In this document: piece by piece, positions 4,742-21,631 of the stretch | Layout of the letters: each line of letters begins with the position of its first letter | How positions within the stretch are numbered: position 1 is the first letter of the stretch | Source: Candidatus Iainarchaeum sp. | Lineage (GTDB): Archaea > Iainarchaeota > Iainarchaeia > Iainarchaeales > JAFCCW01 | Assembly (NCBI GenBank): GCA_017609985.1 | Contig: JAFCCW010000013.1 | Coordinates: 1-21,631, forward strand | DNA length: 21,631 nt | Direction of reading: 5' to 3' | Notes under the pieces: generated by a model | The model's input: only the letters and a program-made list of their open reading frames with translations | Told to the model about the DNA's origin: nothing | Database searches by the model: none | Translations under genes and position numbers: made by a program

Positions 4742-4782
4742 TCAAAGTTATTTGCCTGATTTGGCGTGTTTTTGGCACAATT

Positions 4783-7509: not shown

Positions 7510-7519
7510 ACACCTTCAA

Positions 7520-7861
7520 CTATTTTTTCTCTTTTTCCAGCGCGGTTTTTCTCGCAAGAACAGTTATACTGCTTTCAAGCGCCCTTGCTTTGAAAAAGTT
7601 TTTGATTGAGAAAAATAATGCTGTTAATGCAACAATGCTCAGGAACGCAAATTCCTGACGCGCAAAACCAATGGTTTCAGTAAATTGCTTTGAAACCTCG
7701 GGCAAAACAATCATTACCATAAGTGCGACGGACGTGATTAAGAGTCCGAGAGAAAATGCATCCATTCCACGCTTTCGCGTGTTATTGAGTACAAAAACAA
7801 TCAGGACAGCAAGAAATATAATTCCAGCAATTGTTGTGATGTTGGGCAGCATTTCACGCAC
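7520..7861 (-). CDS. DUF2304-like small membrane protein (partner of polyprenol-P glycosyltransferase)
   Basis: Three hydrophobic segments, P....IG..R pattern and C-terminal LESSITVLARKTAL; directly coupled to the upstream DPM1-like GT2. Confidence 0.75.
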   Translation of the reverse strand: MREMLPNITTIAGIIFLAVLIVFVLNNTRKRGMDAFSLGLLITSVALMVMIVLPEVSKQFTETIGFARQEFAFLSIVALTALFFSIKNFFKARALESSITVLARKTALEKEKK

Positions 7862-8576: not shown

Positions 8577-9944
8577 TTACTTATCCCTGCAAAATCCTCT
8601 TTCACAAATATTTTTCAAAATCCGTAAAGTGCTTTCAGAAACAGTTTCCGTTGAAGTGTCAAGTTTTACATCCGGAGCCGAAGGGGTTTCATATGGAATG
8701 TTTTTTCCCACGATAAATACCTCTTCACCCCTGCTGAGTTTTTTATACAATCCTTTTACATCGCGTTTTTCGCACACTTCAGCAGGACACTGGACAAAAA
8801 CTTCAATGTAATTTTCAATGCTTTTCCTTGCAAAATCCCGCACTTCATTATAGGGTGCAATTATGGAAATCAGAACAGCATTACCCTGTTCAACTTCTTT
8901 TTTTGCAATCAATGCCGCTTCCATGTTTCCCTTTATTATCTCCTCTCTGGAAAAGCTCTTTTCAGAATAGGCTTCCTGTCCTCTTATGGATTTTCTAAGG
9001 GAATCACCGTCAATAATTTTGGCAAAAATTCCTTTCTTTTCAAGTTCCTGCTTTAAAGAGTTTGCAATAGTTGACTTCCCGCTTCCGCTCAATCCGGTAA
9101 GCCAGACAGCAAAACCAGTGCTCTTTGAAATCTTTTTTGGAACTGCTTTGATGTTCAGGCACCTGAAGTCCACTATCAGGTCATTGCCGGCTTCTCTCAG
9201 GTTGTAAGCCTTCTTTATTTTTGGACTGCTGTTTTTTCTGAACTGGAAAATCTTTTCCTTTTGTTCATCAGTCAGGTGATCGTCTCCGTTAATCCAGTTC
9301 AAAAAGCTCATGTCCTTTTGCATAAAAATATCTGTGTCTATCTTATGGAATTGCGGGCTGAGTAACTCTTTCAAAGATTCTTCCGTGAAAGTTACTCTCT
9401 CTTCCTTGAGCTTGAAAATTTCCTCATAATCATTTACAACCTCTGACTCGTAGCTTGGAGGCACGCCTTCGGAAATTATAAAACTGCCGCCTGGCTTTAA
9501 CACGCGAGCTGCCTCTGAAAAAACTTTGTCAGCATCCACTAAAACATGATGCAATACCATTCTTGCAATTACCTTGTCAAATGTATTGTCCTGAAACAGC
9601 AGGCTTCTTGCATCTCCAATGCAAACATCAATATTTTCCTTTTTTTTCCTGAATTCATTTACCATGCTTTCACTGCTGTCTATTGCGACAACTTTTGCGC
9701 ATTTTTCTGCAAGTGCGTTGGCAACAATTCCGGTGCCGGTTCCGATATCAAGAATGACATCGTCTTTTTTCGGATTGATAAAGTTAATAAAATGAGTCAG
9801 GTAGTCCTCCTGATTAGCCCACTGTAACTTATTGTAACTATTGACGCGCCTTCTCCACCAGTCCTTTTTTCCCTTATTTTCCTTTAGATATCCAAGGGCT
9901 TCCAGTTCTCTCCGAACTTCATCCATTGTTTTGTTGTCCTGCAT
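8577..9944 (-). CDS. cysC: Fusion: class I SAM methyltransferase (N-term) + adenylyl-sulfate (APS) kinase CysC (C-term)
   Basis: N-half: ILDIGTGTG, AIDSS, FQDNTFD, LHHV, RVLKPGG. C-half: VWLTGLSGSGKSTIA P-loop, DGDSLR, CEKRDVKGLYKK, PYETPSAPDVKLDT, all typical of APS kinase. Confidence 0.88.
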   Translation of the reverse strand: MQDNKTMDEVRRELEALGYLKENKGKKDWWRRRVNSYNKLQWANQEDYLTHFINFINPKKDDVILDIGTGTGIVANALAEKCAKVVAIDSSESMVNEFRKKKENIDVCIGDARSLLFQDNTFDKVIARMVLHHVLVDADKVFSEAARVLKPGGSFIISEGVPPSYESEVVNDYEEIFKLKEERVTFTEESLKELLSPQFHKIDTDIFMQKDMSFLNWINGDDHLTDEQKEKIFQFRKNSSPKIKKAYNLREAGNDLIVDFRCLNIKAVPKKISKSTGFAVWLTGLSGSGKSTIANSLKQELEKKGIFAKIIDGDSLRKSIRGQEAYSEKSFSREEIIKGNMEAALIAKKEVEQGNAVLISIIAPYNEVRDFARKSIENYIEVFVQCPAEVCEKRDVKGLYKKLSRGEEVFIVGKNIPYETPSAPDVKLDTSTETVSESTLRILKNICERGFCRDK

Positions 9945-11083
9945 CAGTATTCCTCCAGCGGGTCAAACCCAAGTTCCTGCCGTGCTTTTTCCAGAATCTC
10001 TTCTTTCTTTTCTGGCAAACTTTCAGCAAGGTTTTTTTCCTCTTTCGGATCAGCCTCCAGATTGTAAAGTTCAAATGTGTTTGGCACGCTGTTGTATATA
10101 AGCTTCCAGTTCTGGGTTCTGATGCATTTTATATTCGGCTTTTTCGGAGGCTCCTTGTTCTTGTATCTGTTTCCAGTTTCTGAAAAAGCAATTCTTCCGT
10201 TCTTTTCTTTTCCGCGCACTATCGGCAGGATGCTTTTTCCGCTGATTTTTTCCTGCTTTGGATTTTCCTCCAGCCCAAGTGCATCCAGGACAGTTGGTGC
10301 AACATCAATGTTTCTGACCAATTCATCAAATCTTTTTTCAGGAAAAACCCCGTTTTTGATAAAGGCACAAAATGTTTTTAGGGTGTAGTCATAGCAGAAG
10401 CTTCCGTATGCCTTTTCGCCAAATTTATCTCCGACACTCATCCCATGGTCAGAAAATAAAATGACGATGCTGTTTTCAAAAAGCCCGAGGTTTTCAATCT
10501 CTGCAGTAAGTCCTCCAAGATATTCGTCAGCCTCTTTAAAATATTTGTTGTACTGTGCTTCGTAATACTCTTTGTTGTCAAAAAATTCCTTGCTATAGTT
10601 TGTGAACTGTTTGAGAATTTTTTCCTTAACATCAGCATGAATCTTGCTATAATGCAGGAAGCAGAAGAATTTCTGCCCATCGTCGCTTTTTTTCTTCATG
10701 TCCTGCAGGATTCTCCTGTGAATCTCTCCAAGGTTGTCTGCGTTCTCATCATGAATGCTTAATTCGTCAAATCCCTGTAGGGGGCAGACTATGTCGCTCA
10801 GAGTATCTCCTCTGGTAAAATAACCCGCATTCCTAAGGTGCTCTGCAAGAGTCCTGCATTCATCTTTCCTGAAAAGTGCAGATCCGTAGTAATTATCCAC
10901 TCCTGTTTGCATTCCATACATTCCGGTCATGAATGAAAAGACAGACGCAACCGTGTATGGTGCGTGGGTTATGAAATTCGGGAAGAAGCTTCCCCTTTCA
11001 GCAAGCGCCTTAAATTTCGGAAAGTCCAGTAACCTGTCGTTTCTGGCGCCGTCAATCAATAAAACTATAACATTCATCTTCAC
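9944..11083 (-). CDS. Sulfatase-fold / alkaline phosphatase superfamily protein (Thr nucleophile, no CxPxR)
   Basis: LLIDGARND, APYT44VASVFSFMTG, SDHG, IDVAPTVLD, IRTQNWKLIY, ELYNLEADPKEEKNL. Confidence 0.88.
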   Translation of the reverse strand: MKMNVIVLLIDGARNDRLLDFPKFKALAERGSFFPNFITHAPYTVASVFSFMTGMYGMQTGVDNYYGSALFRKDECRTLAEHLRNAGYFTRGDTLSDIVCPLQGFDELSIHDENADNLGEIHRRILQDMKKKSDDGQKFFCFLHYSKIHADVKEKILKQFTNYSKEFFDNKEYYEAQYNKYFKEADEYLGGLTAEIENLGLFENSIVILFSDHGMSVGDKFGEKAYGSFCYDYTLKTFCAFIKNGVFPEKRFDELVRNIDVAPTVLDALGLEENPKQEKISGKSILPIVRGKEKNGRIAFSETGNRYKNKEPPKKPNIKCIRTQNWKLIYNSVPNTFELYNLEADPKEEKNLAESLPEKKEEILEKARQELGFDPLEEY

Positions 11084-12666
11084 ATCACATCAATGTAACC
11101 CATTTCTTCCAATTTTTTCCTTATTTCAATTTCCTGCTTTTCAGTCAACTTCTTTCTTTTTCTTTTTGTTTTTATTTTTTCGGATATGCCTGCTTTTTTT
11201 TTGACAATGTTTTTATTTTTGAAAATGTTTAGAATCCCTCCATCCATTTCAGCGGGAATTCCAAAAATGCTCAGGATAGTCGGAGCAACATCAGTAATAT
11301 TTGCTCCCTTTATTGTCTGCTTTTTTATGTTTTTTCCGGATGCAATGAAAGTTGCGTCCATTGTGTGAAAACCCTCTATTGCTCCTGTTTTTTCAAAAAA
11401 CTTATTTTTTGGAGTTAACACTGATGTGACATGTGGCTTTTTGAATTCCACATAGAGATCAGGTATTTTGTCAAGGAACGGTCCGCTGAACAGTTCCTCT
11501 CGTCTGTAAACATTTTTAACAAGTTTTCCGGTTTCAGAATCGTTTTTCAGAGTATGAATGACTTTGTCCCTTATTTTTTCATAATCTTTTTTTTCAACAA
11601 TGCCCTGCGGTTCCCTTCCCGCTAGATTTATTTTAATCTCTCCGTATTTTCCCGTGCAAAATACCTTTGTTCTGGACCAGTCAGCTGAAACATTTTCAAA
11701 TGCTTTCTCCCGCAGTTTTTCCTCAACCTTTTTTGGCATTTTCAACCCTGTTCTGTCAAGTGCTTTTTGTAATCTGGCACGCCAGCCGAATCTTTTGACA
11801 ATTGAAACCATCCACGCCAGAAAATCAAGATTTTTTTTTGCCTTGAACAAATTGTTTTTTTCAAAAACATTGTTTAAATAAACAGTCCCGTATTGCGGGG
11901 CAAAACCATGGTCGGAAACAACAAATACGGTTGCATCTTTTGCGAGACGAATAATCTTTCCCATTTCCGAGTCAATTTTTTTGTAAAATTTCTTGATTTC
12001 AGATTCTGATTTAGGGTTATACTTTGGATGTTTTTTATCCAGGAAGCTTGAATAGTTGTGGTGCATGTGTTCTGTTTCGCCGATTATCAGCATGACAAAA
12101 TCCCAGTTATTGTTTTCCATAAACCACTTACTAATATCAAATCTTTTCTGCGCGGTTTTAAATGTTTCATCAAAAAAGTCAGCGTGTTCCTTTGTTGCAT
12201 ATTTTGTATGGGTTGTGTATCCTATTTCCTGAAGTTTTTTTGAAAGTTCTTTCGGGTAAGTGCAGTCAGCCATCGGGGGTGTAAGGAATCCAGTAATCAT
12301 TATTCCGTTGACCTGGGTTGGGGGATAACTCAGGGGGAGATTTATTATTGCAATTTTTTTCCCTTCATTTGAAAGCGTTTCATAGATTTTTTGGCCGTGA
12401 ATTGAAGTTGAATTCGGAACCTGCTGGGTGTAGGAGTTTTCCTGCGGCAATTCAGTTGCAAAAATTCCATGCTTGCCCGGATTCAGTCCGGTTACAAGGC
12501 TTGTCCACGCACTCATTGACTGCGGTGGAAAAACTGTTTTTAAAATTCCCGAACTTCCATTTTCAATCAGTTTTTTGGTGTTTGGCATCAGCCCTTTATC
12601 AGCCCATTTTTTAATCAAATCAAGCCTGCTTCCGTCAAGACCAATCACTAAAATTTTTTCTCGCAT
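11080..12666 (-). CDS. Alkaline phosphatase superfamily / type I phosphodiesterase-nucleotide pyrophosphatase-like protein
   Basis: VIGLDG, PPQS50MSAWTSLVTGLNPGKHGI, SDHGF, INLAGREPQGIV, PDL, GFH..DATF, DVAPTIL, C-terminal KLEEMGYI. Confidence 0.88.
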   Translation of the reverse strand: MREKILVIGLDGSRLDLIKKWADKGLMPNTKKLIENGSSGILKTVFPPQSMSAWTSLVTGLNPGKHGIFATELPQENSYTQQVPNSTSIHGQKIYETLSNEGKKIAIINLPLSYPPTQVNGIMITGFLTPPMADCTYPKELSKKLQEIGYTTHTKYATKEHADFFDETFKTAQKRFDISKWFMENNNWDFVMLIIGETEHMHHNYSSFLDKKHPKYNPKSESEIKKFYKKIDSEMGKIIRLAKDATVFVVSDHGFAPQYGTVYLNNVFEKNNLFKAKKNLDFLAWMVSIVKRFGWRARLQKALDRTGLKMPKKVEEKLREKAFENVSADWSRTKVFCTGKYGEIKINLAGREPQGIVEKKDYEKIRDKVIHTLKNDSETGKLVKNVYRREELFSGPFLDKIPDLYVEFKKPHVTSVLTPKNKFFEKTGAIEGFHTMDATFIASGKNIKKQTIKGANITDVAPTILSIFGIPAEMDGGILNIFKNKNIVKKKAGISEKIKTKRKRKKLTEKQEIEIRKKLEEMGYIDVM

Positions 12667-12796
12667 GCAAAGAACCCTACAACCAAAAAGGAAAGGAAAT
12701 GTTTTTTAACCATTCCAGGCTTGCATTCGATTTTTGTACTATTGTTTGTTCAGGCTCATCGCTTTTTTAAATTTTGCTGGCTCCTATCTGTATAAT

Positions 12797-14317
12797 ATGC
12801 TTTGGCTCTGCGAGTTTTTGTCAAAAAACCAGAAAAAAATTTTCATATTAATTTTACTGCTTGGGATAGCTGCGCGAATTTTTTCCCTGACAGTTCTGCC
12901 TGTTGAAGTATACACTGATGCAGTTTATCATCTGCAGATTGTCAAAGAAGTGATTGGCACAGGAACATTCTTTCCTGAAGGAAGTTCCATGCCGCAGTTG
13001 TTTTACTACTCTGCTTCCTCTCAAATTTTTATTCTGACCGGATTTCCGCTGGTGTTTCCCTTTGTGAAAATAGTTCCGCTGTTATTTTCTGCGCTGTTGA
13101 TAGCCCTGACTCTGATAACTCTGAGGGAACTGTTTCCCGGAAAAACATCTGCTCATTTTCTTGGAACTGCTCTTGTTGCAATCCACCCCCTTCTTATACG
13201 ATATGGGTCGGTGAATTACACTGGTCCTGTCGCCGCGGTTTTTGTAATGCTTTCAGTTTATTTTCTTGCAAAGTTTCACCGTTCTTCAAAAGGCAGATAT
13301 CTTATCCTGTTTTTCTTTTCAATTCTTGCAATAAGCCTTTCAAAAGTGAACGCGGTTGCAATGGCCCCGGGGCTTGTGTTCGGAGGCGCGCTTGCAATGC
13401 ATAAAAAAAATTATTCTCCGAAGAAAATTCTTGCCTTTCTTGCAATTGCACTCCTGCTGGCTTCGGCATTCATTATTTTTATGTTTGTGGAAACAGGCGT
13501 TGTGGCAAGAATGTCAGAGGAAAGAATAATAGAGCTTGGTACGGGCAAACTGATTCGTCCAAACATAGCGGAAAGCGCTTTAATGTTTTATTTTTATGTG
13601 TGGGATTTTCCTCCTGTTGCAGAGCTTGGAAAAATTCCTTTTGTTTCGTCTTTTCCTCCTGAGCTTCTGCTCGGATTTTTTGCGCTGGCTGTTCTGCCTC
13701 TTACCACATTAATTGTTTTTTCAGCATATCGCTCATTGAAATCAAAAAACCCAGTCCACTATGCCGTGCTTATTTCAATATTCCTGTGTCTTGCCGTTGT
13801 TTTCTTTCGCAGTTTTGCCGCAAGGCTTTTCATTCCCGCGCTCCCCCTGACTGCAATTCTCATTGTCTATGGCTTTGAAAAAATTAAAAGCTTTGAAAAA
13901 ATAAAAAGCCAGAAAATATTATCTATATTTTTGGTTTCCTTGATTCTCTATTCTCTTTTCGCGTTTTCCTATGCTGCTGGCTCTGCTTTTTATTTCAGTG
14001 ATCAGGCTGATAACTTCAGCGGAATGTATAGCTTTATTTCGAAACTGCCTCCTGAATCGCACATACAGTGCTTTAAAAAGCACAGGGCAATTTTGTTCTA
14101 CACTGAAATAAAATCAGGTTGGCGTGTGGAATCAGAGCTAAATGACGCCGACGAAGTAATGGCTGCACTTGGCAATCGCAATTACACTCACATTGCAGTC
14201 ACCTCTTATGAAACCATCTGGCCAAATGAGCTGATTGAAACAATGCAATTCAAAAACTTTATTAATGAAATATACTCTGACAACTATGCAACTGTTTTTG
14301 AAATAAATTACAGGTGA
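12797..14317 (+). CDS. Multi-pass membrane glycosyltransferase, GT-C fold (ArnT/PMT_2-like)
   Basis: First TM followed by a loop with YTDAVYH, then PQLFYY, about 11-12 hydrophobic segments, R(L)FIP motif and a soluble C-terminal tail ending IYSDNYATVFEI. ATG 12797 (in frame with ORF 12734) has a TTTTAAA box about 25 nt upstream. Confidence 0.72.
   Translation: MLWLCEFLSKNQKKIFILILLLGIAARIFSLTVLPVEVYTDAVYHLQIVKEVIGTGTFFPEGSSMPQLFYYSASSQIFILTGFPLVFPFVKIVPLLFSALLIALTLITLRELFPGKTSAHFLGTALVAIHPLLIRYGSVNYTGPVAAVFVMLSVYFLAKFHRSSKGRYLILFFFSILAISLSKVNAVAMAPGLVFGGALAMHKKNYSPKKILAFLAIALLLASAFIIFMFVETGVVARMSEERIIELGTGKLIRPNIAESALMFYFYVWDFPPVAELGKIPFVSSFPPELLLGFFALAVLPLTTLIVFSAYRSLKSKNPVHYAVLISIFLCLAVVFFRSFAARLFIPALPLTAILIVYGFEKIKSFEKIKSQKILSIFLVSLILYSLFAFSYAAGSAFYFSDQADNFSGMYSFISKLPPESHIQCFKKHRAILFYTEIKSGWRVESELNDADEVMAALGNRNYTHIAVTSYETIWPNELIETMQFKNFINEIYSDNYATVFEINYR
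13872..13907 (+). repeat. In-frame 18-bp tandem duplication (FEKIKS x2)
   Basis: gctttgaaaaaattaaaa / gctttgaaaaaataaaaa, 1 mismatch. Confidence 0.7.
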
Positions 14318-14323
14318 TGCTTA

Positions 14324-15274
14324 ATGGACAAAAAAAAAATTCTTTACATAGCCGGATTTTTGATTCTCGTGCTGTTGGTTCCCTTTTTGGACATTGACTT
14401 AAGTGTTTTTATCATGGTCAAGCACCCAATTTTTATTCTGCTTACCCTGCTTACTATTTTGTTTTCCTTTATTGTCCTTGCTTTCAGGTTGAAATTTTTG
14501 CTTCGGGCTGCTGGTGAAAAAGAACTTTCTCTCATAGACTCGTTCAAGGTTGAAGTCACAAACAGATTTTTCACCTACATCGCGCCAATGAAGCTTAACA
14601 TACCTGTCAAAGCCGTGCTTCTCAATAAAAGATTCAAGGTTGGAAAAGTAAACGCGCTTGCAATGTCTTCCTATGAATACTTCATTGATTTGGGAATACT
14701 CTTTTTCTTTGGATTGCTCGGGTTTTTGTTTGTGTTCAATGACTTTGCAGGAGCACAGGCAAACATGATTTTAATTGTGTTTGCACTGCTGGCTTTTATT
14801 GCGGCTTTTTTCCTTGTTCCAAAACACTTTTTCGGGAAGCTGGAAGCTCGTATTCAGTCTGCTTCTGAGAACATATTCAGAAACGCAATTTTGTTTCTGG
14901 TCAAGTCCCTGAGCCAAATGAGGGAAGCCTGGATTAATCTTTTTTTCAGCAGGGAATCACCTGCTATTATTTTTCTGGTGTTTGTGAAATTCATACTTGC
15001 GATTATAAGTTATATCTTTCTTTTTTGGGCTGTTGGCTATGACCTGAATTTTATTTACATCCTGATGGTAATTTCTTTTTCAATGTTTCTGGGTGGGATT
15101 TCAACGATTCCAAGTGGTCTCGGGGTGAGGGAAGGATCCATTGTGCTTTTGCTCAGCCTGTTTGCCGTCCCCTCTGCTTTCTCTTTCTTTGCAGTAGTGG
15201 CTAACCGTCTGCTGATAATACCTTTTCTTGTTCTGGGCTACTTCTTTTCACTGCAGTTCGGTGTAAAAAAGTGA
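14324..15274 (+). CDS. Lysylphosphatidylglycerol synthase TM / UPF0104 family membrane protein (putative flippase)
   Basis: About 8 TMs, R(L)xxLL, NRFF..AP, E..ID and the signature GGISTIPSGLGVREG...R. Confidence 0.85.
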   Translation: MDKKKILYIAGFLILVLLVPFLDIDLSVFIMVKHPIFILLTLLTILFSFIVLAFRLKFLLRAAGEKELSLIDSFKVEVTNRFFTYIAPMKLNIPVKAVLLNKRFKVGKVNALAMSSYEYFIDLGILFFFGLLGFLFVFNDFAGAQANMILIVFALLAFIAAFFLVPKHFFGKLEARIQSASENIFRNAILFLVKSLSQMREAWINLFFSRESPAIIFLVFVKFILAIISYIFLFWAVGYDLNFIYILMVISFSMFLGGISTIPSGLGVREGSIVLLLSLFAVPSAFSFFAVVANRLLIIPFLVLGYFFSLQFGVKK

Positions 15275-15295
15275 GTTAAGACAAGGTTTTTCTGC

Positions 15296-16597
15296 TCATT
15301 GCCTGTTCTTTAATCCGCTTAGAACAATGTCTATTTTGCTTTTTACAAGCATGAAATCCTCTCTTGTTGGTATAATCTCTATGAATATTTTTTCTTTTCT
15401 TGCAAAATAAAACAGTGCGCTGTTTTTTGTCAGATTAAAAATTATTAATGCTGGAATTATTCCTGTCCAGCCTAATTCTGAAACAATCAATACTGAAGCC
15501 GGAATTCCTACGACAAATGCGGCAATTCCTGAGAAAAACAAATACTCTGCCTTGCTGATGCTCATCAAAGCCTGTCCCATTATGTCAAACGACGATATCA
15601 GCCTAAGCACAACATATAATGGTATTAGAATGTATGCTGCTGAATACTCATCCATGAATATTTCAAGCAGGGGTTTTGAAACAAGTATGAGAAAGATTCC
15701 GATTATCAGGGTTATCAGGAGGTTAAGTTTTAATCCGAGGGAAACAAATCTTGCAAGCACTTTTCTTTCATTGCATTTTTCCATTGAATAGGGCATCAGC
15801 ACGTCATAGATACTGCTTGTTGTTTTTCCAATAAAACTGCTTGCAATTTTGTTTACAAGATAATAATAACCGAGACCAACAGCTCCGACAAACAAGCCTA
15901 TCACTATCTTGAAAAAATTATTGTAAAAATTCTGCGTTATTGAATTCAAAAACTGAAATTTTCCATATTTTACAATTTCCTGCCTGTCAAATTTATTTCC
16001 TTCAACGCTGGTTTTTTTGAAATAATAAAGAGCAAGGGCAATGCACAAGAGCACTGCCACGAGCTGTCCGTAGACCACGCCAAAAGTACCGAGCCCAAGA
16101 CCAAATACAAACAAAAGTGAAAACGCAAGAGTTCCAATTTGCATTATGCTCTCAATCTTCAGGACCTTGCCGAACATTTTAAGTGATGAAAAAAAGAAAA
16201 CAATGCTTACATAAAAAGGCATGAAAATCATCAGGAGGGCGGACACTTGCAACAATTCAAATCCTGGTTTTCCAAGAAAGAAAGTAATCTGTTCCGAGAA
16301 CACGAAAATTGCGGAAATAACCGGGATAATTATTAGATACTGCCATTTGATTATTTTCCAGAAAAGATTTTTTGATTTCGATTTTGGCATAAAAATCTGT
16401 ATCAGATTCTGGAAAGCCTTTACTCCAAACATATTCACGATGCTTGCAAATGCGATGAAATAGGTTACAAGGCCATAGTCTGCAGGCCCCAGATAGTTTG
16501 CAATAAGATAAACATAGACAAAACCCGTGAGAACCATGACTAACTTTTTTGTCTGTTCAAAAACAATGTTTTTTACAAAACCTTTAACCTGTGCCAT
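15296..16597 (-). CDS. Wzx-like oligosaccharide flippase (MOP/MATE superfamily)
   Basis: KN, IANYLGPADYG, GTFGVVYG, VGAVGLGYY, EYSAA..L, LGWTG; about 12 TMs. Confidence 0.88.
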   Translation of the reverse strand: MAQVKGFVKNIVFEQTKKLVMVLTGFVYVYLIANYLGPADYGLVTYFIAFASIVNMFGVKAFQNLIQIFMPKSKSKNLFWKIIKWQYLIIIPVISAIFVFSEQITFFLGKPGFELLQVSALLMIFMPFYVSIVFFFSSLKMFGKVLKIESIMQIGTLAFSLLFVFGLGLGTFGVVYGQLVAVLLCIALALYYFKKTSVEGNKFDRQEIVKYGKFQFLNSITQNFYNNFFKIVIGLFVGAVGLGYYYLVNKIASSFIGKTTSSIYDVLMPYSMEKCNERKVLARFVSLGLKLNLLITLIIGIFLILVSKPLLEIFMDEYSAAYILIPLYVVLRLISSFDIMGQALMSISKAEYLFFSGIAAFVVGIPASVLIVSELGWTGIIPALIIFNLTKNSALFYFARKEKIFIEIIPTREDFMLVKSKIDIVLSGLKNRQ

Positions 16598-16650
16598 TCA
16601 ATCAATTCCATATTTTTAATCTGTGCTGTTCACTGCTCAGTCTATTTCTC

Positions 16651-18039
16651 TTAAAGATACCCGAGCCCGCGAAGCTGTTTTTCTGTTTCCGAATCAAGTT
16701 TTGTTTGTTTTTCTGTCACTTCAATTTCACAGTTTGCACATTCCTCTTCAAAACTTTTTAGCTTATTTTTCATTTCTTCAAGAACTTGTTTTTCTTTGTC
16801 TGAAAGATTTTTTGTTTCATCAGGGTCTGTTTCAAGATTAAAGAGTTCTTCTATGGTGCTGTTTGAAAAAAACACTTCAAATCTTTCCCGTTTAAGAATT
16901 CCTTTGAAAGCCCATTTTGCTAAATCCTTTAAAAGCCTTGAATTAAGTTTTGGCTCAAATCTTTTTTCAGAAATTATATATTTCCATTTGTCTGTCCTGA
17001 CAGATTTTTGTTTTACTGTAAAAGAACCAATTCTTTGATCTGACTGGTTTTCACTAAATGCAATCCTGCTTTTTCCATTTCCTTTAAAAAATTCAACAAG
17101 GCTTTCTCCCTGCATTCGCTCTGGCTTTAGTCCAGCAAGTTCTAGAATGCTTGGGGCAATGTCAATGCTTCTGACAGTTTCCCTGACTCTCTTGCCTTCA
17201 ACTCCTGGCAGTCTCAAAATCAAAGGAATATGCACAAGCTCTTCGTAAAGATTCTGCCAGTGGTCCATTGCCCCGTGGTCCATGAAAGAATCCCCATGGT
17301 CTGCTGTTAAAACAAAAACATTTCTCCCAGAATTCATTTCATCAATCTTCTTAATCAGGTCGCCAATATGCTGATCAACATAGTTTATCTGCTCATCATA
17401 TCTTGCAATCGTATATTCAAGATCATGAAGATTTATTTCTTCGTCAATCACTCCAGTTCGCCAGACATTCTTGCCCTCTGTTGGCTTGTATTCAACAACT
17501 TTTTTTGGAACCTGATATGGGGCGTGCACATCCATATAATGAACAAATGAAAAGACTGGTTTCTTTGCCTGCTTGACATTCTTCAAAATCTTTTTGTTTA
17601 CTTCTTCTGCATTAGCCCAGTGCCCGACAAATTCAAATTTGTCAAAACCATATTCATAACCAAACTTTTTCTTGATGTGCGGGTTTGTTTCAAAAGCCAT
17701 TGTTTCAAACTGGTTTTCTCTAAGCCATTGCGGCAGGTTCTTTAACTTTTTCTTGTACTGGTAGTCGGAATAGTTTTCCGGGTCAAGCACATCAATTGGG
17801 TGCCGCGCCTTGTGAACGCTTGGATAAAGCGAGGTAAGTAGTGAAGTCACAGAAGGTTTTGTATTAAGAGCTTGCGCAATGCAGTCCTCGAACAAAAATC
17901 CCTGTTTTGCAATGCTGTCAATTTCTGGAGAGGTCTGTCTGCCATATCCATAGCAATGCAAGTGATCTGCTCTGAGACAGTCAACCAACAGAACAAAGAA
18001 GTTGCAGTCTTTGAATTCTTTATTTGTCTCACTCTTCAT
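16651..18039 (-). CDS. Sulfatase-fold protein (Thr nucleophile, no CxPxR)
   Basis: VDCLRADHLHCYGY.RQTSP.ID, NT60KPSVTSLLTSLYP..H, HYMDVHAPY, YDEQINYVD, TADHGD, LYEELVHIPLI, ELFNLETDPDETKNL, C-terminal QLRGLGYL. Confidence 0.9.
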   Translation of the reverse strand: MKSETNKEFKDCNFFVLLVDCLRADHLHCYGYGRQTSPEIDSIAKQGFLFEDCIAQALNTKPSVTSLLTSLYPSVHKARHPIDVLDPENYSDYQYKKKLKNLPQWLRENQFETMAFETNPHIKKKFGYEYGFDKFEFVGHWANAEEVNKKILKNVKQAKKPVFSFVHYMDVHAPYQVPKKVVEYKPTEGKNVWRTGVIDEEINLHDLEYTIARYDEQINYVDQHIGDLIKKIDEMNSGRNVFVLTADHGDSFMDHGAMDHWQNLYEELVHIPLILRLPGVEGKRVRETVRSIDIAPSILELAGLKPERMQGESLVEFFKGNGKSRIAFSENQSDQRIGSFTVKQKSVRTDKWKYIISEKRFEPKLNSRLLKDLAKWAFKGILKRERFEVFFSNSTIEELFNLETDPDETKNLSDKEKQVLEEMKNKLKSFEEECANCEIEVTEKQTKLDSETEKQLRGLGYL

Positions 18040-19172
18040 TTTTTACCCCTGCTAATTTTATTGTAAATGTCAATGCTTTCCTCTGCTTTTTTGCTCCAGT
18101 CGTTTTCCTTGGCTCTCTTTAATGCAGTCTTCTCCATTTTCTCTCGCTTTTTTTTGTTATTTAAAACGAGGGAAATTTTTTCTGCAAATTCATCTGGATT
18201 TCCTGCCTCGCAATACACTGCAGAGTCTCCGAGAATATTTTCAACTTCTCTAAACCTGCTTGCAATAGTTGCCTTGCCTGCAGCCATGTATTCAAAAAGC
18301 TTTAACGGAGACCACCAGAATCCATGTTTTTCAAGCTGTTTAAATCGGGTTGTTGAAAAAGGAGCAATGCAAACATCACTTGCCTTGAGGACAACAGGTA
18401 TTTTTTCTTGCTCTATACTTCCAAGGAATCTAACCTTTTTTTCCAAGCCAAGTCCTTCAACTTTTTTCCTGACTTTTTCAAGCTCTTTTCCTGCGCCAAC
18501 AAGAACAAATTTTACGCTGTGTTTCTCAGCAACTCTTTCAGCGATTTTGGGAATTTCCAACACGCCGTGCCATTCCCTGAACGAGCCGACAAAGCAAACA
18601 ATTTTTTCCCCGTGCTTTGAAAATCTTTTTCTTTCTTCTTCGACTTTGCTTTTTCCGATTCTAAAATCTGAATTGCTTACTCCATTACTTACAACATAAA
18701 TCTTTTTTGGAGACTGTGCTGATAAAATTTTCTTAAGAGTTCTTGTCTGGGTAATTATTGCGTTTGTTTTTCTCAGCTTTCTTCTAATAAGGGGAGCATA
18801 CAAAATCTTTCTCTTCCCAGTCCAGGTTTTGGTTCCGGGGTCATTTACTTCAAGAACATGCTTTCCACTAAATCCTTTCAGAAGGCTGATGCTTGAGGGA
18901 TTGATGCTGTAACGTTCGTGCACAATATCTGCTTCGTTTATGTATTTTTTAAGCCTCTTAATTTCACTGAATTCCTTAATTGGGTTGTGGGCAAGTCTAG
19001 CAAGTTCTGTTTCCACAATCTTTACTTTCTTAACCTTGCCTTTTCCTGGTTTGATAAACAGGGTTACACTCACTCCTTTCTTCGCAAGTGCTTCGCAGAT
19101 GCTCTTTGTATGAGTGAAGCCGGCACTGCCTCCCCCAAGCTCTTCTCCAAGTGCAAGATAAACAAGCTTCAC
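18036..19172 (-). CDS. Glycosyltransferase family 4
   Basis: EVND, NGV, FVGSFREWHG, SPLKLFEYMAAGK. Confidence 0.92.
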   Translation of the reverse strand: MKLVYLALGEELGGGSAGFTHTKSICEALAKKGVSVTLFIKPGKGKVKKVKIVETELARLAHNPIKEFSEIKRLKKYINEADIVHERYSINPSSISLLKGFSGKHVLEVNDPGTKTWTGKRKILYAPLIRRKLRKTNAIITQTRTLKKILSAQSPKKIYVVSNGVSNSDFRIGKSKVEEERKRFSKHGEKIVCFVGSFREWHGVLEIPKIAERVAEKHSVKFVLVGAGKELEKVRKKVEGLGLEKKVRFLGSIEQEKIPVVLKASDVCIAPFSTTRFKQLEKHGFWWSPLKLFEYMAAGKATIASRFREVENILGDSAVYCEAGNPDEFAEKISLVLNNKKKREKMEKTALKRAKENDWSKKAEESIDIYNKISRGKK

Positions 19173-20284
19173 TCAATCACTTCCAAGTAAATGCTTTCAA
19201 GTTTTTTTCCATATTTTTTCAGAGAAAAATCCAATGCTCTTCTTCTGGCTTCCATTGCAATCTTTCTCTTTACACTAGCTGGCAAATCCATTGCTTTAAT
19301 CATGTCCCTGCCTGCTTTTTTCGAGTTTTCAAATCCAACAATAAAACCGTTCACTCCCTGTTTTACAAATTTTTCAAAAGAAGGAATTTTGTTAAGTAGC
19401 ACAATCTTTTCAGCAGCCATTGCTTCAATTGCAGTTATTCCAAACCCCTCATGCTCTGAAGCTGAAACAAAAAATTCTGCTTTCTCATAAAATTCTCTGA
19501 GTTTCTTGTCACTCACTCCGCCAGTTATCTCTACTTGTTTGCTGACTCCAAACTCTCCAGCTTTTTTTTCCAGTTCTTCTTTTAGGTTTTCAAAATCTTT
19601 TCCGACAATCAATAACCTTGCATTTTTCTTCCTTTTTGCTGCAACAGCAAATCCCTCAATCAGTTTCTCCAGACCCTTGTTTCTGCTCAGTCTGCCAACA
19701 TACAGGAACAGATTTTTTTCCTTCTTAGAATTTGAAGAACTGAATTTTGAAACATCAACTGCGTTTTCAAGTAATGCAATCTTTTTTTCAGGAACAATTT
19801 TTCTGAACATGCTTCTGTCATTTTCGCTCACAGCAATCACTCTGTCAGCCAGTTTCAATAGAATTTTCTGAACTCCGTTGAAGTAAATTTTCTTAAGCAG
19901 TCCAAAGTTTTTTGTATGAAATACGCCACCGTGCGTGCTTACAACAACTTTTTTCCTGTGCAATGGTTTTGTGACAATCAAAAAATCTGACAAAAAGTTT
20001 ATTCCATGAACATGAACAATGTCTGGCTTGCTTTTTAGTAAAATCTTTGGAACACAAAACGCAATCTTGTAAATTCCAAGGTCAAGAAAAGGAGAGCGCC
20101 AGACTTTAATACCCTGCACGACTTCCTCTGCTTTTAGTTTTTCACTGCTTTTACTGCACTTGTTAAGGCAGAGCACTTCACAATCTATTCCATTCTTTTT
20201 TCCTGAAATACAGGAATCGAGAACAACCTGTTCCACTCCTCCAATACATGGACTGAAATGATGGGCAAGATGCAAGACTTTCAT
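19169..20284 (-). CDS. Glycosyltransferase family 4 (GumH/AceA-like)
   Basis: FSPCIGGVEQVV, HVHGI.FLSD, STHGGVFHT, GRLSRNKG, SEHEGFGITAIEAMAA. Confidence 0.9.
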   Translation of the reverse strand: MKVLHLAHHFSPCIGGVEQVVLDSCISGKKNGIDCEVLCLNKCSKSSEKLKAEEVVQGIKVWRSPFLDLGIYKIAFCVPKILLKSKPDIVHVHGINFLSDFLIVTKPLHRKKVVVSTHGGVFHTKNFGLLKKIYFNGVQKILLKLADRVIAVSENDRSMFRKIVPEKKIALLENAVDVSKFSSSNSKKEKNLFLYVGRLSRNKGLEKLIEGFAVAAKRKKNARLLIVGKDFENLKEELEKKAGEFGVSKQVEITGGVSDKKLREFYEKAEFFVSASEHEGFGITAIEAMAAEKIVLLNKIPSFEKFVKQGVNGFIVGFENSKKAGRDMIKAMDLPASVKRKIAMEARRRALDFSLKKYGKKLESIYLEVIE

Positions 20285-21249
20285 TCTAGCCAGACTCCTT
20301 TAACAATTCCAGTGCCAAGCCCTGCTAAAAAAAGAAAGTCTCTCACAAGCAGGATAAGCGGGGAAAAAAAGCCAAGAGCAAAATTTCTCTTTGCTGCAAA
20401 AACCGTAAATGGAGCAGTTGAAAGAATTGCAACAGAGAGCAATCCCAGCATCAAACCAAATGAAAAACTACTGAAAAGTGAGCCTGCTCCAGCAAGCAAA
20501 GCAAGCCCAATCAAAACAATTCTTGCCTTCATCAACTGAGGAGTATAAGAGTCCTTTACTGCTTTTTCAGAGTGTTTTTTGTAAAGCCTCACTCTCCAAA
20601 AAGCTCTGAAAAATTTTGTTCTAAAATAACCTGCTGGAGACACAGGGTGTTTGTGAAAAACAACTGCTTTTGGATTGAATACAAGTTTTTTTCCTTTCTC
20701 TGCTAGCTTAAAAGAAAAATCCGGGTCTTCACCGCTTGCAATCTTGAATCTTGAATCAAATCCATTGACCTCCAAAAAATCTTTTTTTCTGTAAGCCGCA
20801 GAATAGCTTCCAATAAAGTCAATAAATTTCTGTTTCTTCATTTTTTCATAACGATACTCTATTTCCATTTGGGAAAATCTTGCCATAAATTCTTTTTGCA
20901 TTGAGGCATAAGCTCCTTGCACTCCAGAAACACTCTTGTCCTTAAATGGAGTAAGCATTTCCTTTAGCCAGCCCTGTTCTGCAATGCAGTCGTCGTCAGT
21001 GAAAACAATCACGTCTCCCCTTGCCTGTTTTACTCCATTGTTTCTTGCAGTAGCAGGCCCGGAATTTTTTTGCTGAATCAATCTGACTTTCCTGAATTTT
21101 TTCACAATCTCTGCTGTTTTGTCAGTACTCCCGTCATCAACCACAATAACTTCAAAGCTTCCTGGTTCTTTTTGTCTCAAGACTGAGTTAAGGCATTTGC
21201 CGATAGTCTCCTCTGAATTGAATGCGGGAATCACAACAGTTGCTAGCAT
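20281..21249 (-). CDS. Glycosyltransferase family 2 with C-terminal TM helices
   Basis: TVVIPAFN, VDDGSTD, NSGPATARN, FTDDDC, GFD..F..ASGED, C-terminal hydrophobic helices. ATG 21249 is preferred over TTG 21267. Confidence 0.92.
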   Translation of the reverse strand: MLATVVIPAFNSEETIGKCLNSVLRQKEPGSFEVIVVDDGSTDKTAEIVKKFRKVRLIQQKNSGPATARNNGVKQARGDVIVFTDDDCIAEQGWLKEMLTPFKDKSVSGVQGAYASMQKEFMARFSQMEIEYRYEKMKKQKFIDFIGSYSAAYRKKDFLEVNGFDSRFKIASGEDPDFSFKLAEKGKKLVFNPKAVVFHKHPVSPAGYFRTKFFRAFWRVRLYKKHSEKAVKDSYTPQLMKARIVLIGLALLAGAGSLFSSFSFGLMLGLLSVAILSTAPFTVFAAKRNFALGFFSPLILLVRDFLFLAGLGTGIVKGVWLE

Positions 21250-21333
21250 TGCAAAAATTAAGCTCAAAAAACAGTTAAATACTGTGCTGGTACAAAACCC
21301 GAATCAAGTTTCTTCGCTCACTGCCCCAAAAGC

Positions 21334-21341
21334 TTTAAAAA
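21334..21341 (+). promoter_or_regulatory. Putative archaeal BRE/TATA for cysD (divergent promoter region)
   Basis: CAAAAGC followed by TTTAAAAA upstream of the cysD frame. A TATTTAAC box on the minus strand (about 21274-21281) lies about 25 nt before the GT2 ATG. Confidence 0.35.
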
Positions 21342-21395
21342 CTCAGTAATCATAAGGTGATTTTTTGCAGGTATTGAATCTTGAAGGTGTTTGTT

Positions 21396-21631
21396 CTGGA
21401 CAGGCTTGACGAACTTGAATCAAAAAGCATTTACATAATCCGCGAAGCCTACAGGCAGTACGGCAAGATTGCAGTTCTCTGGTCTATTGGAAAAGACTCA
21501 ACTGCTCTCAAGCCTATAGGCAGTACGGCAAGATTGCAGTTCTCTGGTCTATTGGAAAAGACTCAACTGCTCTCATGTGGCTCTGTCGCAAGGCTTTCTA
21601 TGGCAAACTTCCTTTTCCAGCTCTTCACATT
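21396..21631 (+). CDS. cysD: Sulfate adenylyltransferase subunit 2 (CysD), 5' part; frameshifted as given by a 65-bp duplication (pseudogene or assembly artefact)
   Basis: Not in ORF track. Translation with one repeat copy removed: (L/M)DRLDELESKSIYIIREAYRQYGKIAVLWSIGKDSTALMWLCRKAFYGKLPFPALHI, matching the CysD N-terminus (LE.ESI.IIRE, S.GKDS PP-loop, RKAF...PFP.LH). In-frame starts are TTG 21381, GTG 21387 or CTG 21396. Confidence 0.85.
   Translation, partial: MDRLDELESKSIYIIREAYRQYGKIAVLWSIGKDSTALKPIGSTARLQFSGLLEKTQLLSCGSVARLSMANFLFQLFT
21445..21574 (+). repeat. 65-bp direct tandem duplication within cysD
   Basis: 21445-21509 and 21510-21574 are identical except C21452/T21517. Confidence 0.97.

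What the first reader, a model, noticed from the sequence alone, without database searches (positions are those of the whole stretch)
8577..21631. Candidate glycan-sulfation system: PAPS supply plus non-formylglycine 'sulfatase'-fold enzymes, without a classical sulfotransferase
Seen: APS kinase (8577-9944) and cysD (21396-end) sit within or beside a glycosyltransferase/flippase cluster. Three AP-superfamily proteins (9944-11083, 11080-12666, 16651-18039) are present, two of them translationally coupled directly upstream of the kinase. No recognisable classical PAPS sulfotransferase, sulfatase-maturation enzyme or PAPS/sulfite reductase is in the window. None of the three has the C/S-x-P-x-R formylglycine signature: the nucleophile positions read T44-VAS, S50-MSA and T60-KPS. 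None has a signal peptide or TM anchor. Established: CysD(N)+CysC make PAPS; true sulfatases need FGly; Thr/Ser-nucleophile AP-fold enzymes (LtaS, EptA, NPP) act through covalent intermediates and can be transferases; sulfated N-glycans occur in haloarchaea. Inference: these cytoplasmic proteins could be non-canonical sulfotransferases that move sulfate from PAPS or APS onto lipid-linked or NDP-sugars, rather than hydrolases.
Basis: partly seen in the sequence, partly recalled or inferred. Interest (0 to 1): 0.82.

Follow-up and report, generated by a model that had tools for sequence, protein, structure and literature searches.

The report
Sulfatase-fold enzymes wired to sulfate activation
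A tiny archaeon's sugar-coat gene cluster pairs sulfate-activating enzymes with sulfatase-like proteins that probably add sulfate rather than remove it, and some relatives fuse the two, which hints at a sulfation route that may not need the usual PAPS donor.

Summary
Window 8577-9944 is a methyltransferase-APS kinase fusion. cysD continues past an assembly gap into cysN and a fourth AP-superfamily gene. All four AP-fold proteins carry Thr or Ser at the nucleophile position, lack C/S-x-P-x-R, and have no TM segment or leader.

The genome (1.16 Mb, 86.6% complete; relatives are titled Candidatus Iainarchaeum) gave no match for five classical sulfotransferase families, FGE, sulfite reductase or a CysQ-type phosphatase.

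In Halobacterium salinarum, the sulfatase-like AP-superfamily proteins Agl30 and Agl31 are genetically shown N-glycan sulfotransferases (PMC11980604). That paper does not address the sulfate donor.

New here, across 215 genomes of the phylum:
- 22 genomes have cysD, and 17 of these have an AP-fold gene adjacent or fused to cysD/cysN.
- 14 of the 22 lack APS kinase, and 13 of those 14 have the AP-fold neighbour.
- Four of the five without an AP-fold neighbour have APS kinase plus a classical sulfotransferase instead.
- Natural AP-fold-CysD fusion proteins exist.
- A predicted CysD/AP-fold complex passed its controls.

Counter-evidence: only 1 of 80 metagenome loci of the wider Thr-sulfatase-like family lies next to cysDN, and one relative has the AP cluster with no sulfate activation genes.

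Verdict: probably sulfotransferases, possibly APS-dependent. This is a new variant of a known kind.

The parts
8577..9944 (-). Fusion protein of 455 aa. It has an N-terminal class-I SAM methyltransferase and a C-terminal APS kinase (P-loop GLSGSGKST). An ELEALGYL motif lies at residues 14-21.
   Evidence: Pfam and NCBIfam. Sequence. Motif scan. One other protein with the same architecture, 61% identical, among 120 listed.
9944..11083 (-). Sulfatase-family (PF00884) AP-fold protein of 379 aa. Thr44 stands in place of FGly. No C-terminal LGY tail. Translationally coupled to both neighbours.
   Evidence: A 44%-identical counterpart lies beside a PDE-type gene in relative G015.
11080..12666 (-). 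NPP-like (PF01663) AP-fold protein of 528 aa. Ser50 is at the nucleophile position. D11, H203, D252, H253 and H434 are invariant in its family alignment. C-terminal tail reads ...KLEEMGYIDVM.
   Evidence: Model pLDDT 79.2, pTM 0.80. Best Foldseek matches are Xanthomonas NPP and ENPP1.
12734..14317 (+). Polytopic membrane protein of 527 aa with a weak PMT_2 (GT-C-like) match. With the next gene and the 528-aa AP-fold gene it forms a module that recurs in relative G015.
   Evidence: Module in L030.
14324..15274 (+). LPG_synthase_TM / flippase-like membrane protein, 316 aa.
15296..16597 (-). Wzx-type polysaccharide flippase (Polysacc_synt), 433 aa.
   Evidence: Homologues lie beside AP-fold genes in L019, L020, L025, L125 and L127.
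16651..18039 (-). Sulfatase-family AP-fold protein of 462 aa. Thr60 sits in the motif N-T-K-P-S. C-terminal tail reads ...KQLRGLGYL.
   Evidence: Model pLDDT 76.7, pTM 0.81. Best Foldseek matches are S1 carbohydrate sulfatases, including BT1596 (5G2T/5G2U).
18036..21267 (-). Three glycosyltransferases in one overlapping operon with the 462-aa AP-fold gene: GT4 at 18036-19172, GT4 at 19169-20284, GT2 at 20281-21267.
21381..21631 (+). 5' part of cysD (PP-loop SIGKDS), with a tandem duplication of about 61 bases and a frameshift next to the scaffold gap. The gene continues at C23:21652, followed by cysN and a 587-aa NPP-like AP-fold gene.
1..8543 (-). The rest of the glycan cluster: B12-radical SAM, methyltransferases, DegT aminotransferase, two NDP-sugar epimerase/dehydratases, formyltransferase, GT4, DUF2304 and GT2. 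One methyltransferase at 707-1303 is on the + strand.

Best explanation
The window is part of a cell-surface glycan biosynthesis cluster of a small-genome DPANN archaeon (Iainarchaeota). The cluster carries its own sulfate-activation genes: cysD-cysN, and an APS kinase fused to a methyltransferase.

The four cytoplasmic AP-superfamily proteins are two S1-sulfatase-like and two NPP-like proteins. All have Thr or Ser where sulfatases have formylglycine. They are most likely the sulfuryl-transfer enzymes of the pathway.

Proposed mechanism (inferred, not shown):
1. The metal-activated Thr/Ser attacks the sulfur of the adenylyl-sulfate anhydride (APS, or PAPS where a kinase exists). AMP or PAP is released and a sulfo-enzyme forms.
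2. The sulfuryl group then passes to a sugar hydroxyl of a lipid-linked or nucleotide-linked glycan on the cytoplasmic side, before Wzx flipping.
3. Lacking the FGly gem-diol, the enzyme cannot eliminate the sulfate hydrolytically. This would favour transfer over hydrolysis.

At least the cysD-adjacent members probably work in physical contact with CysD and take APS directly.

Shown: the gene content, the active-site substitutions, the phyletic and neighbourhood pattern, and the fusions. Inferred: the chemistry, the donor and the acceptor.

For: (2) No alternative consumer of activated sulfate in the own genome. Five sulfotransferase Pfam families, FGE, NIR_SIR and Inositol_P all gave 0 matches. 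The extra PAPS_reduct hits are GuaA and ThiI.

(3) Neighbourhood. In the 61-genome sample, the 528-aa protein's homologues occur in 9 of 14 genomes with CysD or APS kinase, and in 1 of 47 without. Phylum-wide (215 genomes), 22 have CysD. An AP-fold gene is adjacent or fused in 17 of the 22 (16 clear, 1 weak).

(4) Independence from the kinase. 14 of the 22 have no APS kinase match at E<=1e-10, and 13 of those 14 have the AP-fold neighbour.

(5) Complementarity. Of the 5 CysD genomes without an AP-fold neighbour, 4 (G111, G112, G114, G167) have APS kinase plus a classical sulfotransferase. In G056, G167 and G114 (weak) the sulfotransferase lies beside the kinase.

(6) Fusions. G105 encodes a 672-aa PDE-type AP domain fused to CysD. 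Among 120 listed long CysD proteins (of 475 hits), 3 are AP-fold-CysD fusions. One is sulfatase-type with Thr at the nucleophile (P0178) and two are PDE-type. The window's methyltransferase domain is also found fused to a PDE-type AP domain (P0246).

(7) Minimal two-gene modules. cysD plus a sulfatase-family gene occur without cysN, kinase or glycan genes in G032, G049 and G069.

(8) Predicted complex of the G049 pair. The score was 0.74 and the best of 3 controls was 0.36. The mark was reached by 58 of 80 solved complexes and 2 of 110 mismatched pairs. The runs agree in at least 96% of contacts and the partner pLDDT is at least 75. My own alignments were used, so the counts hold only roughly. 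This supports binding but does not show it.

(9) Sulfite reductase was found in 0 of the 21 CysD relatives and not in the own genome.
Against: There is no biochemical evidence for any protein of this window.

Thr/Ser nucleophiles with these metal ligands are the hallmark of phosphoryl-transfer AP-fold enzymes (NPP, PhnA, EptA, LtaS). NPP-type enzymes normally attack phosphorus, which with APS would merely release sulfate.

The broad Thr-type sulfatase-like family is not generally tied to sulfate activation. Of 80 metagenome loci (median about 7 kb), 1 has cysD/cysN nearby, 0 have APS kinase and 9 have a PDE-type neighbour.

Relative G028 (93% complete) has three PDE-type genes plus a sulfatase-like gene and Wzx, but no CysD, Sat or convincing APS kinase was found.

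G019 and G056 have APS kinase without an AP-fold gene within 10 kb.

Genomes are incomplete MAGs and kin are not independent.

In the window, the kinase fusion is co-transcribed with two AP-fold genes. So PAPS, not APS, may be the donor here.
Confidence: 0.6

Rival explanations
1. The AP-fold proteins are ordinary phosphoryl-transfer enzymes of the glycan pathway. They would add or trim phosphodiester-linked groups (phosphoglycerol, phosphoethanolamine, sugar-phosphate) or cleave nucleotide-sugars. On this view they sit near cysD/cysC only because both serve the same glycan.
For: The Thr/Ser nucleophile and conserved metal ligands are typical of NPP, PhnA, EptA and LtaS. Only 1 of 80 loci of the wider family is next to cysDN. 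G028 has the AP-fold cluster with no sulfate activation genes found.
Against: AP-fold-CysD fusion proteins exist. Two-gene cysD plus sulfatase-family modules lie outside glycan clusters. The AP-fold neighbour and the classical sulfotransferases are distributed in a complementary either/or pattern. In 13 kinase-less, reductase-less genomes no other consumer of APS is visible.
Confidence: 0.15
2. Some or all of them, especially the NPP-like ones, are accessory nucleotide-processing enzymes of the sulfation pathway. They would remove PAP (no CysQ was found), hydrolyse excess APS/PAPS, or pull the ATP sulfurylase reaction. The true sulfotransferase would be one of the others or unknown.
For: The NPP-like fold is built to bind adenine nucleotides. 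No Inositol_P/CysQ-type phosphatase is in the genome. The 528-aa gene is co-transcribed with the kinase. There are four AP-fold paralogues, so the roles may be split.
Against: In the 14 genomes without APS kinase there is no PAP to remove, yet 13 keep the AP-fold neighbour. Those genomes would then have no sulfotransferase at all: a classical one was found in 1 of the 14. Hydrolysing APS next to its GTP-driven synthesis would be a futile cycle.
Confidence: 0.18
3. They are true sulfatases that edit or recycle sulfated glycans.
For: The Pfam Sulfatase matches and the best structural matches are to S1 carbohydrate sulfatases.
Against: There is no C/S-x-P-x-R motif. No FGE was found. The only radical SAM/SPASM protein nearby reaches no anSME model among its 25 best NCBIfam matches. 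The proteins are cytoplasmic with no leader. They are coupled to sulfate activation rather than to uptake or degradation genes.
Confidence: 0.03

Closest known systems
Halobacterium salinarum Agl30 (VNG1056C) and Agl31 (VNG1057C), N-glycan sulfotransferases of the AP superfamily (PMC11980604)
   Same: Sulfatase-like AP-superfamily proteins encoded inside an archaeal glycosylation cluster. One is soluble. BT1596 (5G2U) is among the nearest solved structures. They act on the cytoplasmic side before flipping. The glycan is also methylated, and here a methyltransferase is fused to the kinase.
   Different: The host here is a DPANN archaeon, not a haloarchaeon. Two of the four proteins here are NPP-like (PF01663), not sulfatase-like. 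The genes are linked or fused to cysD/cysN, Sat and APS kinase, which the paper does not discuss (PAPS occurs 0 times in its text). Sequence orthology and the nucleophile residue of Agl30/31 were not tested.
Type I (S1) formylglycine sulfatases
   Same: The fold, the metal-binding Asp/His residues and the SGSH_C-type C-terminal subdomain.
   Different: Thr replaces the FGly precursor. The Pro/Arg of the signature are absent. No FGE was found. The proteins are cytoplasmic. Transfer rather than hydrolysis is proposed.
Nucleotide pyrophosphatase/phosphodiesterases (NPP/ENPP) and phosphonoacetate hydrolase PhnA
   Same: The 528- and 587-aa proteins match PF01663. Their nucleophile aligns with the Thr of PhnA. 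The best fold matches are Xac NPP and ENPP1.
   Different: About 15-18% identity. There are large insertions (roughly residues 130-330). They are cytoplasmic. They are linked to cysD. The proposed attack is on sulfur rather than phosphorus.
Classical PAPS-dependent carbohydrate sulfotransferases (Sulfotransfer_1/2/3; e.g. Sam10, PMC13291958)
   Same: The proposed overall reaction is the same: sulfate from an adenylyl-sulfate donor to a sugar hydroxyl. In this phylum they occupy the complementary set of genomes.
   Different: Unrelated fold. Classical enzymes use direct in-line transfer with 5'-PSB and 3'-PB motifs and no covalent intermediate. In this phylum they co-occur with APS kinase, whereas the AP-fold genes do not need it.
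Bacterial aryl sulfate sulfotransferase (ASST), the known PAPS-independent sulfotransferase (recalled; cited in PMC11625862)
   Same: A ping-pong mechanism through a covalent sulfo-enzyme, independent of PAPS.
   Different: ASST is a periplasmic beta-propeller with a sulfo-histidine intermediate and phenolic donors. It is unrelated in fold, and it is not linked to ATP sulfurylase.

Membership tests
Type I formylglycine sulfatase (S1) | Sulfatase/AP fold | tested here: met
   PF00884 at 93.6 and 146.2 bits. Foldseek gives S1 sulfatases at E about 1e-21 for the 462-aa model.
Type I formylglycine sulfatase (S1) | C/S-x-P/A-x-R signature that supplies formylglycine | tested here: not met
   The sequences read T-V-A-S-V and T-K-P-S-V. 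T44 aligns with the Cys/Ser54 position of choline sulfatase. The column is Thr in 120 of 120 homologues.
Type I formylglycine sulfatase (S1) | A maturation enzyme (FGE or anSME) in the genome | tested here: not met
   FGE-sulfatase gave 0 matches at E<=1. The radical SAM/SPASM gene at C23:32372-33448 scores best to a tungsten-cofactor maturase model (110 bits against a cut-off of 380), and no anSME model is among its 25 best. The genome is 86.6% complete.
NPP / PF01663 phosphodiesterase family | Match above the Pfam gathering score and an NPP-like fold | tested here: met
   156.4 and 119.9 bits against a cut-off of 23. Foldseek E about 1e-16 to Xac NPP and ENPP1, TM about 0.6-0.67 on the target.
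NPP / PF01663 phosphodiesterase family | Thr/Ser nucleophile and conserved metal ligands | tested here: met
   S50 aligns with PhnA Thr64. The column is S or T in 8 of 8 family members. D11, H203, D252, H253 and H434 are invariant. Assigning these to the two metal sites is from recall.
NPP / PF01663 phosphodiesterase family | Hydrolysis of nucleotide phosphodiester or pyrophosphate bonds | not testable with these tools
   Needs an enzyme assay.
Archaeal AP-fold glycan sulfotransferases (Agl30/Agl31 type) | AP-like core, sulfatase-like protein encoded in a glycosylation cluster | tested here: met
   Definition taken from PMC11980604, section 17.
Archaeal AP-fold glycan sulfotransferases (Agl30/Agl31 type) | Sequence relationship to VNG1056C/VNG1057C | not tested
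   Their sequences were not obtainable.
Archaeal AP-fold glycan sulfotransferases (Agl30/Agl31 type) | Required for, and sufficient to confer, glycan sulfation | not testable with these tools
   Needs genetics and mass spectrometry.
Classical PAPS sulfotransferases | Membership of Sulfotransfer_1/2/3/4 or the Stf0 family anywhere in the genome | tested here: not met
   0 matches at E<=1 for PF00685, PF13469, PF03567, PF17784 and PF09037. The PF09037 control rang nowhere, so that one result is uninformative.
APS kinase (CysC) | Equivalog-level model match and P-loop | tested here: met
   TIGR00455 at 155.6 bits against 138.7. GLSGSGKST is present. It is the only APS kinase in the genome.
ATP sulfurylase CysD/CysN | CysD PP-loop domain followed by a CysN GTPase | tested here: met
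   PF01507 at 96.8 bits. CysN TIGR02034 at 388.7 bits against 336.1. SIGKDS is present. The cysD reading frame is disturbed by a duplication at the scaffold gap.

The most novel reading that the evidence does not exclude
Thr/Ser-nucleophile AP-fold enzymes dock onto CysD, or are fused to it. They take the sulfuryl group straight from APS through a covalent sulfo-Thr/Ser intermediate. This would be a PAPS-independent, ATP-sulfurylase-coupled sulfation pathway, and it would be the missing donor chemistry behind archaeal glycan sulfation. It would also explain sulfated glycans in lineages without APS kinase. As a lead only: the Hfx. volcanii control genome rang for APS_kinase at E<=0.01 but not at E<=1e-5 or E<=1e-10, although it sulfates its low-salt N-glycan (PMC3892788).
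Probability: 0.35. Interest if true: 0.85.

Novelty: new variant of a known kind. Interest (0 to 1): 0.72.

Why it matters
PAPS is treated as the universal biological sulfate donor, and sulfotransferases are searched for by the classical fold. A 2024 review expected archaeal enzymes among PF03567 hits (PMC11625862, passages read).

The 2025 Halobacterium work showed that sulfatase-fold proteins can be the sulfotransferases, but it left the donor and mechanism open.

The pattern found here turns that open question into a direct experiment: CysD(N) + AP-fold protein + ATP + 35S-sulfate, with and without APS kinase. The pattern consists of:
- AP-fold genes adjacent or fused to cysD in 17 of 22 genomes;
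- persistence of the neighbour in 13 of 14 genomes that lack APS kinase;
- replacement by a classical sulfotransferase plus kinase in 4 of the other 5.

If confirmed, it would add a second, mechanistically distinct sulfation chemistry. It would change how 'sulfatase' annotations in biosynthetic clusters are read. It would also offer APS-driven enzymes for glycan sulfation in vitro.

Tried and rejected

(2) The MeOPN-type reading was considered. In it, an APS-kinase homologue phosphorylates a cytidine diphosphoramidate, as in Campylobacter (recalled). I dropped it because bona fide cysD-cysN flank the cluster, and no glutamine-kinase or cytidylyltransferase set was seen.

(3) Assimilatory use of activated sulfate was rejected. 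No NIR_SIR was found in the own genome or in 21 CysD relatives. The PAPS_reduct extras are GuaA and ThiI.

(4) I tested the idea that the shared L-x-x-[LM]-G-Y-[LIMV] tail is the docking peptide between CysD and AP-fold proteins. The confident contacts of the predicted complex involve CysD residues 6-21 and 46-52, not its tail. The tail remains unexplained.

(5) I looked for a general link between the Thr-type sulfatase-like family and cysC/cysD in metagenomes. It is not there: 1 of 80 loci.

(6) The genome-contig scan with the 587-aa family returned only 5 loci, 4 of them already in hand.

(7) Agl7 of Hfx. volcanii: its annotation sits in a supplementary table that is closed, so its fold could not be compared.

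(8) The radical SAM/SPASM gene near the cluster was checked as a possible anSME and did not fit.

Full report
**What is in the window**

The 21.6-kb window is the first part of a 100-kb contig of a 1.16-Mb, 37-contig genome rated 86.6% complete. The closest public relatives carry record titles 'Candidatus Iainarchaeum archaeon', so this is a DPANN archaeon of the Iainarchaeota.

Every sizeable ORF has a glycan-biosynthesis or membrane-export assignment:
- sugar aminotransferase, epimerase/dehydratases and a formyltransferase;
- several methyltransferases;
- GT2 and GT4 glycosyltransferases;
- a Wzx flippase;
- a GT-C-like membrane protein and a flippase-like LPG_synthase_TM protein.

The gene at 8577-9944 is a fusion of a class-I methyltransferase with an APS kinase domain. 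The kinase domain passes the NCBIfam equivalog cut-off (155.6 against 138.7 bits). It is the only APS kinase in the genome.

It is translationally coupled to a 379-aa sulfatase-family protein and a 528-aa PF01663 (NPP-like) protein.

A 462-aa sulfatase-family protein heads an overlapping operon with three glycosyltransferases.

cysD begins at 21381. It is disturbed by a tandem duplication of about 61 bases next to a 20-N scaffold gap. It then continues, followed by cysN and by a fourth AP-superfamily gene of 587 aa.

**Active sites and location**

- T44 of the 379-aa protein aligns with the formylglycine position of choline sulfatase.
- S50 of the 528-aa protein aligns with Thr64 of phosphonoacetate hydrolase.
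- T60 of the 462-aa protein lies in a column that is Thr in 120 of 120 listed homologues.
- The same column is Ser or Thr in all aligned relatives of the four proteins.
- None has C/S-x-P-x-R.
- None has a hydrophobic segment or leader. The catalytic first strand starts within the first 16 residues.

The models (pLDDT 79.2 and 76.7) resemble Xanthomonas NPP/ENPP1 and S1 carbohydrate sulfatases respectively.

**What else the genome has**

There was no match at E<=1 for Sulfotransfer_1, _2, _3, _4 or Stf0. The Stf0 control rang nowhere, so that result says little. There was also no match for FGE or sulfite reductase, and none at E<=0.01 for a CysQ-type phosphatase.

The other PAPS_reduct matches are GMP synthase and ThiI. 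So activated sulfate is made, is not reduced, and has no classical consumer. The caveat is that about 13% of the genome is missing.

**Literature**

Zaretsky et al. [quoted passage not shown] These are annotated as alkaline-phosphatase-domain, sulfatase-like proteins. They confer sulfation when expressed in Hfx. volcanii.

The text never mentions PAPS, formylglycine or threonine. A follow-up paper likewise does not name a donor (PMC12624080, passages).

A 2024 review still looked for archaeal enzymes among PF03567 hits (PMC11625862, passages).

Searches for an AP-superfamily/PAPS/archaea link and for 'sulfatase-like' with CysD/CysN found nothing relevant. These searches cover only the held library.

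**Comparative genomics, first sample**

I searched 60 same-order relatives plus the own genome.
- APS kinase (E<1e-30) occurs in 8 genomes.
- CysD (E<1e-15) occurs in 8.
- Homologues of the 528-aa protein (E<1e-8) occur in 10.
- The AP-fold homologues are in 9 of the 14 genomes that have CysD or the kinase, and in 1 of the 47 that have neither.
- All 8 CysD genomes have an AP-fold gene beside cysD.

The arrangements seen are:
- cysD-cysN-PDE, as in the own genome;
- PDE overlapping the cysD start;
- PDE-cysD-sulfatase-like;
- in G032 and G049, a bare two-gene unit of cysD plus a sulfatase-family gene. It lies among unrelated genes, with no cysN match in the stretch fetched and no kinase match in these genomes.

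Where cysD is missing but the kinase and PDE genes are present (G011, G015), a Sat-type sulfurylase sits next to the kinase.

**Comparative genomics, whole phylum (215 genomes)**

22 genomes have CysD and 20 have APS kinase.

An AP-fold gene is adjacent or fused to cysD/cysN in 17 of the 22. Of these, 16 are clear. One, G113, rests on a weak match to a short PDE-like ORF.

14 of the 22 have no kinase match at E<=1e-10. Of these 14, 13 have the AP-fold neighbour. The exception, G144, has cysD at a contig end.

The other four without an AP-fold neighbour are G111, G112, G114 and G167. They are on short contigs in part. All four have the kinase and a classical sulfotransferase. In G167 and (weakly) G114 it lies directly beside the kinase. 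The same holds in G056, which has the kinase but no CysD.

Among the 14 kinase-less genomes, a classical sulfotransferase was found in 1 (G095).

None of the 21 CysD relatives has a sulfite reductase.

Kin are not independent and MAGs are incomplete. Even so, the pattern spans at least seven GTDB-level families.

**Fusions**

G105 encodes a 672-aa protein. Its first 400 or so residues match the profile of the 528-aa family (E 4e-13), with an FSDHG metal motif. Its last 270 residues are a complete CysD.

I searched the 5.8-billion-protein collection for long CysD proteins. It listed 120 of 475 hits. Most are intein-bearing, tandem-CysD or CysD-CysN(-kinase) forms. Three are AP-fold-CysD fusions: one sulfatase-type with Thr at the nucleophile position, and two PDE-type.

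The window's methyltransferase-kinase architecture recurs once among 120 listed (61% identity). The same methyltransferase type is also found fused to a PDE-type AP domain.

**Predicted contact**

I folded the G049 pair (sulfatase-family protein with CysD, each given with a small alignment).
- The score was 0.74 and the best of 3 controls was 0.36.
- The mark was reached by 58 of 80 solved complexes and 2 of 110 mismatched pairs.
- The runs agree in at least 96% of contacts, and the partner pLDDT is at least 75.
- The counts hold only roughly because my own alignments were used.

The model supports binding but does not show it. The confident contacts are AP-fold residues 93-141 with the N-terminal helix (6-21) and residues 46-52 of CysD.

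**Evidence against**

The wider Thr-type sulfatase-like family is large and mostly bacterial by the names given. Of 80 metagenome loci (median about 7 kb), 1 has cysD/cysN nearby, none has the kinase, and 9 have a PDE-type neighbour.

G028 has three PDE-type genes, a sulfatase-like gene and Wzx, but no sulfate-activation gene was found.

G019 and G056 have the kinase without an AP-fold gene within 10 kb.

Chemically, Thr/Ser AP-fold enzymes are phosphoryl-transfer enzymes as a rule, and NPPs attack phosphorus.

In the window itself the kinase is co-transcribed with two AP-fold genes, so PAPS may be the donor there.

**Reading**

The most economical account is that these AP-fold proteins are the sulfuryl-transfer enzymes of the cluster. 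They would act through a sulfo-Thr/Ser intermediate on the cytoplasmic face before Wzx export. The cysD-linked members would take APS directly.

A division of labour among the four paralogues cannot be excluded. For example, one NPP-like protein might dispose of PAP, since no CysQ was found.

I put 0.6 on the sulfotransferase reading and about 0.35 on the bolder APS-coupled, PAPS-independent pathway.

**Unexplained**

The motif L-x-x-[LM]-G-Y-[LIMV] occurs five times in 2,413 ORFs of the genome. Four of the five are in this cluster:
- the C-termini of CysD, the 528-aa protein and the 462-aa protein;
- the N-terminus of the methyltransferase-kinase.

It ends CysD in 8 of 8 relatives. It ends 78 of 120 homologues of the 462-aa protein. 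It ends 6 of 10 PDE528-type and 3 of 8 sulfatase-type relatives.

Tail-less AP-fold proteins tend to sit next to a tail-bearing gene. The complex model did not place the tail in the interface, so its role is open.

Noticed in passing
window 21470-21631 and C23:21632-21651: A tandem duplication of about 61 bases inside cysD shifts the frame immediately before a 20-N scaffold gap. It is probably an assembly artefact rather than a broken gene.
   Followed up: partly
window 8577-9944 (N-terminus), 11080-12666 and 16651-18039 (C-termini), cysD C-terminus at C23:22200-22239; also C33:301-1365: A shared motif L-x-x-[LM]-G-Y-[LIMV] occurs 5 times in 2,413 ORFs, 4 of them in this cluster. It is conserved at the C-terminus of CysD (8 of 8 relatives) and of 78 of 120 Thr-type sulfatase-like homologues. 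The fifth carrier is a 354-aa protein with no Pfam or NCBIfam match. Function unknown.
   Followed up: partly
window 11080-15274; L030 (G015:C1:395702-399874); L130: A module of the 528-aa NPP-like gene, a GT-C-like membrane protein and an LPG_synthase_TM flippase-like protein recurs in relative G015. In G103, a PDE528-type gene and a GT-C-like gene lie about 3 kb apart.
   Followed up: partly
L005:4346-5785 (C23:25997-27436) and window 3-569: B12-binding radical SAM genes flank the cluster. The one after the 587-aa AP-fold gene resembles HpnJ (468 bits, below the 577.6 cut-off). The order cysD-cysN-PDE-B12 rSAM is also seen in relative G102 (L129).
   Followed up: no
L005:10721-11797 (C23:32372-33448): A radical SAM/SPASM protein 11 kb beyond the window. 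Its best match is a tungsten-cofactor maturase model far below cut-off, and it is not an anSME by NCBIfam. Target unknown.
   Followed up: partly
L129:3400-4110, L133:7015-7725, L138:7089-7907: Short (236-272 aa) PDE-like ORFs lie directly beside cysD/cysN in three relatives. They keep the first-strand Asp, a Thr in the nucleophile motif and SDHG. They are either minimal AP-fold proteins or decayed genes.
   Followed up: partly
G054:C1:112143-114881 (not fetched as a locus): A 992-aa open frame holds three Sulfotransfer_1/3 domains in tandem. It lies about 5 kb from a cysD / cysN-APS kinase operon that also has PDE-type and sulfatase-like genes. So both kinds of candidate sulfotransferase occur in one locus.
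   Followed up: no
proteins P0125, P0135-P0141 and many others: Many CysD proteins of about 490-560 aa have a degenerate second CysD-like half at the N-terminus. Many others carry inteins. Neither group is an AP-fold fusion.
   Followed up: partly
P0246 and P0247: Further fusions of pathway parts occur elsewhere. One joins a PDE-type AP domain to the window's type of methyltransferase. Another joins APS kinase to an Inositol_P (CysQ-type) domain.
   Followed up: partly
L137:1-1336 (G167), L132:2954-4726 (G112), L018:9707-12064 (G054): Other domain fusions of the activation enzymes occur in the phylum: APS kinase-CysD, CysN with a partial APS kinase, and a 785-aa CysN-APS kinase.
   Followed up: no
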